A stretch of 64,000 nt of DNA from Escherichia coli (GTDB lineage Bacteria; Pseudomonadota; Gammaproteobacteria; Enterobacterales; Enterobacteriaceae), in assembly GCF_030013205.1 (NCBI RefSeq), contig NZ_CP122648.1; one strand, 5' to 3'. The position numbers were made by a program. Positions 48,592-51,500 of the stretch are shown here, piece after piece; position 1 is the first letter of the stretch; every line of letters starts with the position of its first letter.

Positions 48592-51500
48592 TCATCCTCT
48601 TTATCGACTCACGCGCTAAACCGGCGCGCCAGTGCGTAACTGCTGTAACAAACGCTCCACGGGAGCCGCCAGGCCAACTGACGGCGGTTGCGCTAAGTTA
48701 TACCAGAGCGCATTGCCTTCATCCATGCAGCCGGTGAATGACGACACGGGAAGCCACATAGGCACAATATCTAAGTGGAAATGGCTGAAGGTATGCCGAA
48801 ACGCGGTCAGTTGCGTCAGGTTATCGGCAGCAATCTGCCGTTGCGTCAACCATAGTCGCAAACTTTCTTCATCGGCAAACTGCGGGAAACAGTATAAACT
48901 GCCCCACAATCCGCTCGGCGGACGCTGCGCCAGCAATACTTCATCTTCGTGCTGTAACAGTAAAAAGTAACCCGTGCGCTCCGGTAGCGTCTGCTTTGGT
49001 TTTTTGCCCGGATAAAGCGACCAGCTATTGTTGGCGGCGGCAATACACCCGTTTTGTAGCGGACAGAGCGAACATTTCGGCTTAGAGCGCGTACAAATCA
49101 TCGCGCCCAAATCCATCATCGCCTGATTAAACCGTTCCACGCCAACCGCGGGCGTCACCTGCTCGCTCAAACTCCACAGTTTATTCTCGACTTCTTTTTT
49201 CCCAGGCCAGCCGCTTACAGCATAGCAGCGCGCCAGCACGCGTTTGACGTTACCGTCGAGAATCGGAAAGTGCTTACCCAGAGAAAGCGAGAGAATCGCG
49301 CCTGCGGTGGAACGCCCGACGCCCGGCAGTGCTGCAACTTCCTCAAAGGTTTCCGGGAATTTACCGCCGTGTAAGGTCGCCACTTGCTGTGCCGCTTTAT
49401 GCAGATTGCGCGCGCGGGCGTAATAGCCAAGCCCGGTCCACAAGTGGAGAACTTCGTCGAGCGGCGCATTGGCGAGATCGGTCACCGTTGGGAAGCGCGC
49501 CATAAAGCGTTCAAAATAGGGGATAACGGTCGCAACCTGAGTTTGTTGCAACATCACTTCTGAGAGCCATACTTTGTAGGGCGTCTTGTCAATTTGCCAG
49601 GGCAGCGTTTTCCGCCCGTATTTATCGTACCAGTCCAGAACCTGGGCTGAAAATTGCGACGCTTGCATGGTCACCGAATTCACTGTTGTTGGGGGCAAGA
49701 TTGCAGCACAGCGACGGCAGGGTGTAAACCGGAACTTTCCGCAGCCACGGCCTTATCATGCTTGCATCCGGCAACTAACTTTGGATAATGCCCGTTTTCA
49801 GAACACTTTCACAAGCGACTAAATCTTTATGAAAAACGACGTCATCTCACCGGAATTTGATGAAAACGGCCGCCCACTGCGCCGTATCCGTAGTTTTGTG
49901 CGCCGCCAGGGGCGACTGACCAAAGGCCAGGAACATGCGCTGGAAAACTACTGGCCGGTGATGGGCGTTGAGTTCAGCGAAGATATGCTGGATTTCCCTG
50001 CGCTTTTTGGCCGTGAAGCGCCGGTGACGCTTGAGATTGGTTTCGGCATGGGGGCGTCGCTGGTGGCAATGGCTAAAGATCGCCCCGAGCAGGACTTCCT
50101 CGGCATTGAAGTGCATTCACCGGGCGTTGGTGCGTGCCTGGCTTCTGCGCATGAAGAGGGCTTAAGCAACCTGCGCGTGATGTGTCACGATGCGGTTGAA
50201 GTGCTGCATAAAATGATTCCTGACAATTCATTGCGCATGGTGCAGCTCTTTTTCCCTGACCCGTGGCACAAAGCGCGCCATAATAAACGCCGTATCGTTC
50301 AGGTGCCGTTTGCCGAACTGGTAAAAAGCAAACTGCAACTGGGGGGCGTATTCCATATGGCGACCGACTGGGAACCTTATGCGGAACATATGCTTGAAGT
50401 GATGTCTTCTATTGACGGTTATAAAAACCTGTCAGAGAGCAATGATTACGTACCGCGTCCGGCATCACGTCCGGTGACGAAATTTGAACAACGTGGTCAT
50501 CGTCTTGGTCACGGAGTATGGGACTTAATGTTCGAGAGGGTGAAATAATGGCAAAGAACCGTAGCCGTCGTCTGCGTAAAAAAATGCACATCGACGAATT
50601 CCAGGAATTAGGATTTTCGGTGGCATGGCGATTCCCGGAAGGTACATCGGAAGAACAGATTGATAAAACCGTTGATGACTTTATTAACGAGGTTATCGAA
50701 CCGAACAAACTGGCCTTTGACGGCAGCGGTTATCTGGCCTGGGAAGGTCTGATCTGCATGCAGGAAATCGGCAAATGCACCGAAGAACATCAGGCGATTG
50801 TGCGTAAGTGGCTGGAAGAGCGCAAACTGGGCGAGGTACGCACCAGCGAACTTTTCGACGTTTGGTGGGACTAAGAAAACATACGGGCGATGACAAAGTT
50901 AAAAAAAGCGCTCGGATAGTCCCCTCGCCCCTCCGGGGAGAGGGTTAGGGGGAGGGGAACAGACCAGCACTGGCGCGATTATTTACCCTCACCCCGACCC
51001 TCTCCCTAAAAGGGCGAGGGGGAAAACCGTGCCCCTTTTGACTTTTAAGCCAGTTTGTTATCAATCTGGGGTCAGCAAATGCTGGCCTGATTTGTTCTTG
51101 AGGGAAGACTATGATGCGCAAAATGCTGCTGGCGGCAGCACTTTCAGTGACGGCGATGACCGCTCACGCCGACTACCAGTGCAGCGTCACGCCGCGTGAC
51201 GATGTGATTGTCAGCCCGCAAACCGTGCAGGTGAAGGGCGAAAACGGCAATCTGGTGATCACGCCAGACGGCAACGTGATGTATAACGGTAAGCAATATT
51301 CCCTGAATGCCGCCCAGCGCGAGCAGGCGAAGGATTATCAGGCTGAACTGCGTAGCACCCTGCCGTGGATTGATGAAGGCGCGAAAAGCCGCGTCGAAAA
51401 AGCCCGTATTGCGCTGGATAAAATTATCGTTCAGGAGATGGGCGAAAGCAGCAAAATGCGCAGCCGTCTGACCAAACTTGATGCGCAGCTGAAAGAGCAG

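What the first reader, a model, noticed from the sequence alone, without database searches (positions are those of the whole stretch)
50920..51025. Large GC-rich inverted-repeat element between yggL and yggN
Two 40-nt units in inverted orientation, rich in CCCCTC / GAGGGG runs, are separated by about 25 bp and could form an extended stem-loop in RNA or a cruciform in DNA. The element lies in the 5' region of yggN and may act as a terminator for trmB-yggL or as a regulatory structure.
Basis: seen in the sequence. Interest (0 to 1): 0.3.

Follow-up and report, generated by a model that had tools for sequence, protein, structure and literature searches.

The report
Known boxC repeat pair, rare allele
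The GC-rich inverted repeat between yggL and yggN is a paired copy of the long-known E. coli boxC (PIT/TMECO) intergenic repeat; it sits here in only about 1% of E. coli genomes, in place of the usual REP/BIME repeat, and is probably not the terminator or a gene-specific regulator.

Summary
Two ~36-nt units at 50922-50956 (+) and 50986-51020 (-), 29 nt apart, fold into a long hairpin (RNA -83 kcal/mol, z -6.7). Both match the published boxC/PIT/TMECO consensus exactly, as a type A (TTA loop) plus type B-like (TCG loop) inverted pair. Holder et al. 2015 describe this arrangement at five K-12 loci.

The repeat is larger than reported: about 180 bp (50888-51067), closed by short inverted ends. 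It is a rare allele, found in 54 of 5,426 complete E. coli genomes. The rest, and three other Escherichia species, carry a REP pair (BIME) between the same ends. A fourth carries an expanded REP array behind the same left end. Other Enterobacteriaceae have a ~50-bp "empty" spacer holding only a conserved 8-bp hairpin plus T-run (51069-51099), which shows compensatory changes. That hairpin is the better terminator candidate.

The terminator or regulator reading of the boxC pair is not supported. Published tests found no promoter or terminator activity for these repeats. At most it is probably a passive RNA hairpin in the yggL 3' region.

One side observation may be new. boxC pairs share their 14-16-nt inverted ends with BIME-1 elements, so this locus looks like a swap of cores.

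The family is already known; interest is low.

The parts
50888..51067 (+). Whole inserted repeat element (about 180 bp), measured against the 'empty' yggL-yggN spacer of other Enterobacteriaceae. It is a composite boxC element with short inverted ends.
   Evidence: The empty-site comparison places the insert between CATACGGG and GGGGYCAGC. The paralogous gcvP-ygfF copy aligns over window 50889-51060 at 87%. Nine loci were aligned. The whole-spacer fold closes the hairpin with the end motifs.
50889..50897 (+). Left terminal motif GATGACAAA. It is a truncated copy of the family end TCAGAYTGMTGACAAA and is retained in both the boxC and the REP/BIME alleles.
   Evidence: Alignment A1; family alignment; the same motif at the ends of BIME-1 elements.
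50922..50957 (+). boxC/TMECO unit, type A (second loop TTA): CCCTCGCCC-CTCCG-GGGAGAGGG-TTA-GGGGGAGGG-G.
   Evidence: Exact match to the published pattern. It differs by one base from K-12 TMECO no. 23 in Table 1 of PMC4666352. The G at 50951 is specific to this lineage; three other carriers checked have T.
50958..50984 (.). Central spacer AACAGACCAGCACTGGCGCGATTATTT, the apical loop of the long hairpin. It is conserved among paired copies.
   Evidence: Family alignment; folds.
50985..51020 (-). boxC/TMECO unit, type B-like (second loop TCG): CCCTCGCCC-TTTTA-GGGAGAGGG-TCG-GGGTGAGGG-T on the - strand.
   Evidence: Exact match to the published pattern. K-12 units 12 and 20 have the same TCG loop.
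51054..51067 (+). Right terminal motif TTTGTTATCAATCT, the inverted counterpart of the left end. It is retained in both alleles.
   Evidence: (the only hit with <=2 mismatches in the 64-kb window).
51069..51099 (+). Conserved terminator-like hairpin GGGTCAGC-AAAT-GCTGGCCT followed by GATTTGTTCTT. It predates the repeat insertion and is not part of the repeat.
   Evidence: The only terminator-like site in 50700-51300. Present in all 34 aligned Enterobacteriaceae spacers, with 100% of 272 cells paired and 2 pairs showing compensatory changes. It folds on its own in the whole-spacer fold.
50548..50874 (+). yggL coding sequence (upstream gene).
   Evidence: ORF list; RefSeq annotation of the identical K_EC180 locus.
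51111..51830 (+). yggN coding sequence (downstream gene); Shine-Dalgarno GAGGGA at 51100-51105.
   Evidence: ORF list; annotation; conserved SD and ATG in alignment A3.

Best explanation
The feature is one copy of the boxC repeat of E. coli, also published as the PIT element and as TMECO. It is in the palindromic 'type A plus type B' paired form and is embedded in a ~180-bp composite element with short inverted ends (50888-51067). It is a dispersed, probably selfish or neutral, intergenic repeat and not a gene-specific signal.

At this locus it is a derived, rare allele. The Escherichia ancestor acquired a repeat insertion between the yggL stop codon and a pre-existing conserved terminator hairpin. 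In most lineages the core of that insertion is a REP pair (BIME). In about 1% of E. coli genomes the core is the boxC pair, while the outer ends are unchanged.

When transcribed from yggL, the element would form a very stable RNA hairpin just upstream of the true terminator. I infer that at most it acts as a passive structural block, for example against 3' exonucleases, or as an RNase III substrate. At the DNA level it is a palindrome able to form hairpins or cruciforms, and triplexes in single strands, and it marks a spot prone to sequence replacement.

Shown here: identity, extent, copy family, allele frequencies, the empty site and the conserved terminator. Inferred: the direction of the swap, and any effect on RNA.
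For: - **Identity.** Both units match the published consensus exactly, with 0 matches in shuffles, and are near-identical to listed K-12 copies. The A+B inverted pairing is the arrangement described for all five paired K-12 loci (PMC4666352).
- **Family.** Homologous paired copies occur at yijF-gldA, barA-gudD, gcvP-ygfF, hrpB-mrcB, fepB-entC and alx, a degraded one at recA-recX, and a single unit at gntP-fimH.
- **Rare allele.** 54 of 5,426 complete genomes carry it at >=97.7% identity; the locus was checked in four of them. The REP-pair form is the best hit at >=90% identity in 5,408 records.
- **Polarity.** E. albertii, E. whittamii and Escherichia sp. E1V33 have the REP pair. Escherichia sp. 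MOD1-EC7003 has an expanded REP array.
- **Empty site.** 69 of 75 non-Escherichia loci have a 45-59-bp spacer with only the terminator hairpin.
- **Terminator.** The conserved hairpin plus T-run at 51069-51099 is 100% paired with compensatory changes. It stays separate from the long hairpin in the whole-spacer folds of both alleles.
- **Literature.** These repeats showed no promoter or terminator activity and no association with gene class or distance. Their loci are unusually variable between strains (PMC4666352).
- **No sign of selection on the stem.** The substitution at 50951 in this lineage breaks a pair without compensation. In 3 of 7 paired loci, the A and B units differ at the variable position of their C-blocks, which gives a mismatch in the long stem.
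Against: - No transcript or expression data exist for this allele. A -83 kcal/mol hairpin 40 nt upstream of a terminator and 90 nt upstream of a start codon could still change yggL mRNA stability or read-through into yggN.
- In Shigella flexneri a ~140-nt RNA from this spacer accumulates (PMC3071730), so the inserted repeat is transcribed and could have acquired a role.
- Type A is always paired with type B. This regularity is unexplained and could reflect selection or a copying mechanism.
- The direction of the swap rests on parsimony. No donor copy more than 87% identical was found.
- Carriers have at least two different yggL protein alleles, so the history involves recombination or more than one origin.
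Confidence: 0.8

Rival explanations
1. The long hairpin is the intrinsic terminator of the trmB-yggL transcript.
For: The stem-loop is very stable. T-rich stretches (CCCCTTTTGACTTTT, 51033-51047) lie 3' of it. REP-type repeats at gene ends are known to influence 3' ends (general knowledge).
Against: The terminator scan did not call it. The T-run starts 13 nt beyond the G-rich arm and is itself paired with the A-run 50895-50904 in the minimum-energy fold. A canonical, phylogenetically conserved hairpin plus T-run lies 45 nt further downstream and exists without the repeat in other genera. About 99% of E. coli genomes lack the element. PIT elements had no terminator activity in earlier tests (PMC4666352).
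Confidence: 0.07
2. It is a regulatory leader for yggN. For example, it could be a structure that modulates read-through of the conserved terminator, because its apical spacer (GACCAGCA) resembles the 5' arm of the terminator (GGTCAGCA) and could compete for the 3' arm.
For: the repeat finder pair I3 (50960-50974 with 51075-51089, 80% complementary). The element lies between yggL and the terminator/SD of yggN.
Against: The spacer sequence is the family consensus and occurs at unrelated loci, so the resemblance is not specific to this locus. In the whole-spacer fold the terminator hairpin forms independently. The allele is rare and is replaced by an unrelated REP core in most strains. No promoter-like site was found.
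Confidence: 0.05
3. It serves as an RNA stability element or as the body of a 3'-UTR-derived small RNA. The long hairpin plus the terminator would accumulate as a stable ~190-nt RNA, the counterpart of Shigella cssrE. This is compatible with the best explanation, differing only in claiming a function.
For: A ~140-nt RNA on the gene strand between yggL and yggN was confirmed by Northern blot in S. flexneri 301, with its 3' end placed at the predicted terminator (PMC3071730). Both alleles fold as a long hairpin followed by the terminator hairpin.
Against: The Shigella allele was not checked here and is only presumed to be the REP form. Accumulation does not show function. No target or phenotype is known. 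The core is interchangeable and absent in other genera.
Confidence: 0.3
4. It is a miniature transposable element. boxC pairs and BIME-1 would be alternative cargoes of one 'shell' defined by shared 14-16-nt inverted ends, moved or exchanged by a common mechanism. Under this reading the allele arose by replacement transposition, or by end-guided gene conversion.
For: The same end motifs flank boxC composites and BIME-1. The 14-mer occurs 84 times (38 distinct sites) in 858 kb of E. coli-like DNA against 0-3 in shuffles, always beside a REP unit. Pairs of ends enclosed REP units (26) or boxC (3) and never neither, in the E. coli-derived loci and window. The same ends surround an unrelated interior in Mangrovibacter. 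An empty site exists, with a possible GGG duplication.
Against: No transposase with matching ends was identified. The left end at this locus is truncated to 9-10 nt. Several boxC loci lack the ends altogether. The target duplication is ambiguous. The sample was seeded with REP- and boxC-containing loci. The outer motifs of BIME-1 (called A and B, as I recall) are long known, and the overlap with boxC may already be in literature I could not read.
Confidence: 0.25

Closest known systems
boxC repeat of E. coli (Bergler 1992; Bachellier 1996/1999), also published as the PIT element (Hoyne and Maher 2000) and as TMECO (Holder et al. 2015, PMC4666352)
   Same: Both units match the consensus exactly. 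The location is intergenic. The type A plus type B inverted pairing is the same as at five K-12 loci. The locus is variable between strains, as reported for the family.
   Different: Nothing essential differs. This particular locus is not a K-12 boxC site (K-12 has a REP pair here), and I could not find it by gene name in the two of the paper's supplementary files that are held as text. Published unit sizes (34-37 nt for TMECO, 56 bp for boxC) are much shorter than the ~180-bp composite seen here.
BIME-1 / RIB / RIP (REP pair Y-L-Z1 with outer flanking motifs)
   Same: It occupies exactly the same insertion point in about 99% of E. coli genomes. It is bounded by the same inverted end motifs and is of similar size (131-140 bp against 180 bp). 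It also folds as a long hairpin upstream of the terminator.
   Different: The core sequence is unrelated. There is no REP/PU consensus in the window element and no long linker carrying an IHF site. REPs have a known associated transposase-like protein (RAYT/TnpA-REP, PMC3333891); none is known for boxC.
ERIC/IRU and other enterobacterial miniature inverted-repeat elements
   Same: It is a palindromic intergenic element of about 130-180 bp that folds into one long RNA hairpin and is present or absent between strains. ERIC copies occupy this same spacer in Kluyvera sichuanensis and in a Pluralibacter MAG.
   Different: There is no sequence similarity to ERIC. boxC is built from purine/pyrimidine blocks with triplex potential.
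Rho-independent (intrinsic) terminators
   Same: It has a GC-rich stem in the 3' region of a gene.
   Different: The stem is about five times longer than a terminator stem and has no adjacent U-run. The real terminator-like hairpin is the separate conserved one at 51069-51099.

Membership tests
boxC / PIT / TMECO repeat | Sequence pattern CCCTCNCCC-N3-6-GGGNGAGGG-N3-GGGNGAGGG (PMC4666352) | tested here: met
   Two exact matches, 50922-50956 (+) and 50986-51020 (-); 0 in 100 shuffles.
boxC / PIT / TMECO repeat | Dispersed, multi-copy and strictly intergenic in E. coli | tested here: met
   The element lies between yggL and yggN. Homologous copies are at 10 other intergenic loci fetched here. 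The paper lists 23 copies in K-12.
boxC / PIT / TMECO repeat | When paired, one type A unit (TTA loop) and one type B unit (CCG/TCG/CTG loop) in inverted orientation | tested here: met
   The left unit has TTA and the right unit has TCG. This is the arrangement described.
boxC / PIT / TMECO repeat | The single-stranded G-rich strand folds into an intrastrand purine-motif triplex in vitro | not testable with these tools
   Only Watson-Crick folding can be computed here. The three blocks needed are present.
REP / BIME | Palindromic unit consensus (GCC[G/T]GATGCG ... CTTATC[C/A]GGCCTAC) | tested here: not met
   There is no REP head or tail motif in 50888-51067; the only ones in the window are at 61716-61772. 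The K-12 and other Escherichia alleles of the same site do contain them.
REP / BIME | Outer inverted end motifs of BIME-1 (TCAGAYTGMTGACAAA ... TTTGTCAGCAATCTGA) | tested here: met
   Right end 51054-51067 (2 mismatches to the 15-nt TIR pattern searched), left end truncated to GATGACAAA. The motif was validated on BIME-1 copies.
Intrinsic terminator | Short GC-rich stem-loop directly followed by a T/U-run | tested here: not met
   Not called for the boxC hairpin; called for 51069-51088 plus its tail. The first T-run after the boxC arm starts 13 nt away.
Intrinsic terminator | Transcript 3' ends map to the site | not testable with these tools
   There are no transcript data for a carrier strain. 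The Shigella RNA cssrE was assigned to the downstream predicted terminator.
Miniature inverted-repeat transposable element | Terminal inverted repeats | tested here: met
   GATGACAAA / TTTGTTATC at this locus; 14-16 nt at paralogs.
Miniature inverted-repeat transposable element | Presence/absence polymorphism with a recognisable empty site | tested here: met
   A ~50-bp spacer without the insert in 69 of 75 non-Escherichia loci.
Miniature inverted-repeat transposable element | Target-site duplication | tested here: inconclusive
   There are 3 G before and 4 G after the insert against 3-4 G in empty sites. A 3-bp GGG duplication is possible but not provable.
Miniature inverted-repeat transposable element | A parent element or transposase with matching ends | not tested
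   No search for a transposase with these ends was made.
Curated RNA families (Rfam 15) | Match at or above a family's gathering score | tested here: not met
   Only three sub-threshold microRNA look-alikes (22-26 bits against cut-offs of 72-74), which are chance matches to any long hairpin.

The most novel reading that the evidence does not exclude
boxC pairs and BIME-1 (and at least one further interior, in Mangrovibacter) are interchangeable cargoes of a single family of miniature elements, defined by a shared 14-16-nt terminal inverted repeat (TCAGAYTGMTGACAAA). The yggL-yggN locus would then capture a natural cargo swap inside fixed ends. This would imply a common end-recognising mobilisation or conversion mechanism for two repeat families that are treated as unrelated, and would give boxC its first candidate route of spread.
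Probability: 0.25. Interest if true: 0.4.

Novelty: already known. Interest (0 to 1): 0.15.

Why it matters
For genome annotation, this is a repeat-family copy and should be labelled as such, not as a terminator or riboswitch-like leader. The conserved hairpin at 51069-51099 is the feature that deserves the terminator label.

For people who study bacterial repeats, the locus is a clean natural example of one intergenic spot, just upstream of a terminator hairpin, that has been colonised by different repeat families. These are a REP pair or boxC in Escherichia, and ERIC in Kluyvera and Pluralibacter. In E. coli the core has been swapped between retained ends.

If the shared ends reflect a common mechanism, this would link boxC, whose origin and spread are unexplained, to BIME-1.

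Tried and rejected
- **Rfam scan of 49500-52500**: only chance microRNA look-alikes.
- **Promoter scan**: none.
- **Small ORFs overlapping the element** (50808-50948 +, 50945-51121 -, 51029-51199 +): no Pfam family, treated as spurious. The 'hypothetical protein' that PGAP places inside the REP allele of strain JJ2434 is likewise taken as an artefact.
- **Other copies in the 64-kb window:** none.
- **Supplements of Holder et al.** searched for yggL, yggN, trmB and ansB: nothing, so I cannot say whether this locus is one of their 63.
- **Original BIME and boxC papers** (PMC1207841, PMC333889): not held. Whether the shared ends are already described therefore remains open.
- **Viral-contig scan for the Y-type REP unit:** only 2 loci.
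- **50 kb of K-12** fetched to look for BIME-1 copies: none found; it only showed two single boxC units inside prophage CP4-6.
- **A near-identical donor copy:** none above 87% identity in genomes lacking the allele.
- **A search for 'yggL' plus 'terminator' papers** gave nothing on transcript ends.
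Full report
**The observation**

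The window carries mutY (-), then trmB, yggL, yggN and ansB (+), and is E. coli.
- The repeat finder gives arms 50903-50959 and 50983-51039 (57 nt, 74% complementary, 23 nt apart).
- The + strand RNA folds to -83.1 kcal/mol and the - strand to -86.7, z about -6.7, with 0 of 200 shuffles as good.
- As single-stranded DNA it folds to -40 kcal/mol, z -5.1.

**What it is**

The two units match the published pattern CCCTCNCCC-N3-6-GGGNGAGGG-N3-GGGNGAGGG exactly, at 50922-50956 (+) and 50986-51020 (-), with none in 100 shuffles of the window. This pattern defines the repeat called TMECO by Holder et al. 2015 (PMC4666352). They state that it is the same element as boxC, found in the 1990s, and as the PIT elements of Maher's group.
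- The left unit differs by one base from K-12 copy no. 23 and has the TTA second loop of 'type A'.
- The right unit has a TCG loop, like the 'type B' copies 12 and 20.
- The paper reports 23 copies in K-12, always intergenic. Five loci carry two copies in inverted orientation, and each of those combines one A unit with one B unit. That is exactly what is seen here.
- Rfam has nothing for it.

**True extent**

BLAST of window 50885-51060 against 5,426 complete E. coli genomes finds partial or full paralogs at other loci. The gcvP-ygfF copy aligns over window 50889-51060 at 87%.

I aligned nine loci: this one, yijF-gldA, barA-gudD, hrpB-mrcB, fepB-entC, ygfF-gcvP, alx, recA-recX and gntP-fimH. 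Conservation runs well beyond the 36-nt cores:
- a left arm (..GATGACAAAGT.TAAAAAGTGCTCGGACAGT), then unit A;
- a conserved spacer (AACAGGCCAGCACTGGCGCGAATATTTA), then unit B inverted;
- a right arm (GAAAACCGTGCC...TTGAGCCAGTTTGTTAGCAATCT).

The outermost 9-16 nt are inverted repeats of each other and close the hairpin in the fold of the whole spacer.

**Population and phylogeny**
- Only 54 of 5,426 genomes carry this element at yggL-yggN, at 97.7-100% identity. The locus was verified in K_EC180, EFF60, VR50 and Z1323HEC0462. The pig O139:H1 ETEC group is identical to the window.
- K-12 and nearly all other strains have a REP pair (BIME) at the same place, between the same outer motifs CGATGACAAA and TTTGTTATCAATCT.
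- E. albertii, E. whittamii and Escherichia sp. E1V33 also have the REP pair. Escherichia sp. MOD1-EC7003 has an expanded REP array.
- In 69 of 75 loci from other Enterobacteriaceae, the yggL-yggN spacer is only 45-59 bp.
- The insert in Escherichia therefore lies between CATACGGG and GGGGYCAGC, which is window 50888-51067.

By parsimony the REP core is ancestral in Escherichia and the boxC core is a later replacement. No donor above 87% identity was found, and carriers have at least two different YggL alleles, so the history is not resolved.

In three of the other carriers, position 50951 is T (the consensus) and 51072 is C. The window's lineage therefore has two derived changes. One breaks a pair of the long hairpin, and the other turns a C-G pair of the terminator stem into U-G.

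**The terminator question**

All the short 'empty' spacers consist of a hairpin GGGYCRGC-N4-GCYGRCCC, a T-run, the Shine-Dalgarno sequence and the yggN ATG.
- In 34 aligned spacers all 272 cells are paired. Two pairs show changes on both sides (G-C to A-U, C-G to U-A). Sliding the partner by 1-3 columns drops pairing to 19-49%.
- In the window this hairpin is at 51069-51088, with the T-run reaching 51099. It is the only terminator-like site the scan calls between 50700 and 51300.
- It folds independently of the long hairpin in both alleles.
- In Shigella flexneri 301, a ~140-nt RNA (cssrE) on the gene strand between yggL and yggN was confirmed by Northern blot, with its 3' end placed at the predicted terminator (PMC3071730). 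This fits transcription through the inserted repeat and termination at the conserved hairpin. The Shigella allele itself was not checked.
- The boxC hairpin has no T-run adjacent to its GC-rich stem.
- Earlier experiments found no promoter or terminator activity for PIT elements, and no effect on RNA polymerase (as summarised in PMC4666352).

**How it most likely works**

Shown here:
- It is a copy of a dispersed repeat family.
- It is dispensable: it is absent from about 99% of E. coli genomes and from other genera.
- It sits in the transcribed region between the yggL stop codon and the conserved terminator.

Inferred: in RNA it forms a long hairpin that is at most a passive element, such as a barrier to 3' exonucleases like REP hairpins, or an RNase III substrate. 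In DNA it is a palindrome that can form hairpins on single strands.

Triplex formation was shown in vitro for single-stranded oligonucleotides, but not for duplex DNA and not in vivo. Holder et al. link the family to local sequence instability, and the core replacement at this very locus is an example.

There is no sign of selection on the long stem. Besides the uncompensated 50951 change, in three of seven paired loci the A and B units differ at the variable position of their C-blocks, which gives a mismatch in the long stem.

**A side result**

The outer motifs are shared with BIME-1.
- BIME-1 copies at ridA-mgtA and on two other contigs read ..GAGACTGATGACAAAC-[Y REP]-linker-[Z REP]-..CTTTGTCAACAATCTGA.
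- In 858 kb of E. coli-like metagenome DNA seeded only with the Y REP unit, the 14-mer AGAYTGMTGACAAA (<=1 mismatch) occurs 84 times at 38 distinct sites, against 0-3 in shuffles. Every site is next to a REP unit.
- About half of the long-linker (BIME-1-like) pairs carry it, and none of 12 short-linker (BIME-2-like) pairs do.
- Across 1 Mb of the E. coli-derived loci and the window, pairs of the motif enclose REP units (26 distinct) or boxC pairs (3), never neither.
- In Mangrovibacter the same ends enclose an unrelated ~120-nt interior downstream of yggN.

The sample is biased, because it was seeded with REP and boxC loci. Several boxC loci lack the ends. As I recall, the outer motifs of BIME-1 are the long-known 'A' and 'B' motifs. 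I could not read the older papers, so I present this as a lead and not as a finding.

**Comparison and verdict**

The element meets every testable defining feature of boxC/PIT/TMECO. It lacks the REP consensus, although it shares BIME-1's ends. It fails the intrinsic-terminator criteria. It meets some criteria of a miniature transposable element (inverted ends, empty site), but not all: the target duplication is ambiguous and no transposase is known.

The family is already known. The new information is local:
- this is a rare allele at this site;
- the composite is about 180 bp;
- the real conserved terminator is next door.

Interest is low (0.15). The most novel reading not excluded is a common 'shell' for boxC and BIME-1, implying a shared mechanism. 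I give it about 0.25 probability and moderate interest if true.

Noticed in passing
window 51069-51099: Conserved 8-bp hairpin plus T-run directly upstream of the yggN Shine-Dalgarno sequence. It is present in all 34 Enterobacteriaceae spacers aligned, is 100% paired and has two pairs with compensatory changes. Because it sits only 12 nt before the yggN start region, yggN expression would need read-through or a promoter upstream of a terminator. This is unexplained.
   Followed up: yes
window 50889-50897 and 51054-51067; L098 300-440; L099 10030-10260; L010 153-334: boxC composite elements and BIME-1 elements share the same 14-16-nt terminal inverted repeat (TCAGAYTGMTGACAAA). The motif is strongly enriched (84 hits against 0-3 in shuffles) and is always next to a REP unit or a boxC unit in E. 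coli DNA.
   Followed up: partly
L080 and L087, 2439-2576 (Mangrovibacter, downstream of yggN): The same terminal motifs (GAGTCTGATGACAAAC ... TTTTTCATCAATCTGAGG) enclose an unrelated ~120-nt interior with neither REP nor boxC. This may be a third cargo for the same ends.
   Followed up: no
L034, L042, L050, L068, L072, L073, L077, L079, L082, L088, L090, L092, about 2408-2450: In Kosakonia, Enterobacter, Pseudocitrobacter, Pluralibacter, Pseudenterobacter and others, boxC units sit directly after the yggN stop codon, often as an outward-facing pair. E. coli and Citrobacter have an ordinary hairpin terminator there (window 51845-51875).
   Followed up: partly
L076 1640-1760 (Kluyvera sichuanensis); L059 1640-1900 (Pluralibacter MAG): ERIC/IRU-like repeats (matches to the ERIC core AAGTAAGTGACTGGGGTGAGCG with 2-3 mismatches) are inserted in the yggL-yggN spacer upstream of the conserved hairpin. 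Three different repeat families have therefore colonised this spot in different lineages.
   Followed up: partly
L016 1627-2000 (Escherichia sp. MOD1-EC7003): The yggL-yggN spacer holds a tandem array of several REP pairs (BIME-2-like expansion) behind the same left end GATGACAAATGCAAAACTG.
   Followed up: no
Shigella flexneri 301, 3043743-3043882 (literature: PMC3071730): A ~140-nt RNA, cssrE, was confirmed by Northern blot between yggL and yggN on the gene strand. It probably corresponds to the inserted repeat plus the terminator. The allele in that strain was not checked.
   Followed up: partly
L006 395-560 (K-12 gntP-fimH): This is a hybrid element: left end, then a boxC type A unit and spacer, then a REP unit where the type B unit would be, then a right end-like motif. 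It looks like an intermediate between the two kinds of core.
   Followed up: partly
L100 2908-3120 (viral-contig collection): A BIME-1-like REP pair directly abuts a boxC-like unit (CCCCTCTCCTCACGGAGAGGGTTTGGGTGAGGG). This is another REP-boxC adjacency.
   Followed up: no
L097 32101-32135 and 39246-39278 (K-12 282101 and 289246): Two single boxC units lie inside the cryptic prophage CP4-6 (annotated 262898-297205). Holder et al. state that the motif is not associated with phages.
   Followed up: no
window 50960-50974 and 51075-51089: The apical spacer of the boxC pair (CAGACCAGCACTGGC) is 80% complementary to the 3' half of the terminator hairpin. The family-consensus spacer contains GGCCAGCA, which is identical to the terminator's 5' arm in K-12 and Citrobacter. 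This is probably coincidence, but it could bear on target choice.
   Followed up: no
window 61716-61772: A short, degenerate REP pair (GCCTGATGCGCTACGCTTATCAGGCTTAC ... GCCGCATCCGGC) without the outer end motifs. These are the only REP units in the 64-kb window.
   Followed up: no
L002 598-738 (strain JJ2434): RefSeq/PGAP annotates a 46-aa 'hypothetical protein' (WP_001296361.1) entirely inside the REP-pair allele of this spacer. It is most likely a spurious call.
   Followed up: no
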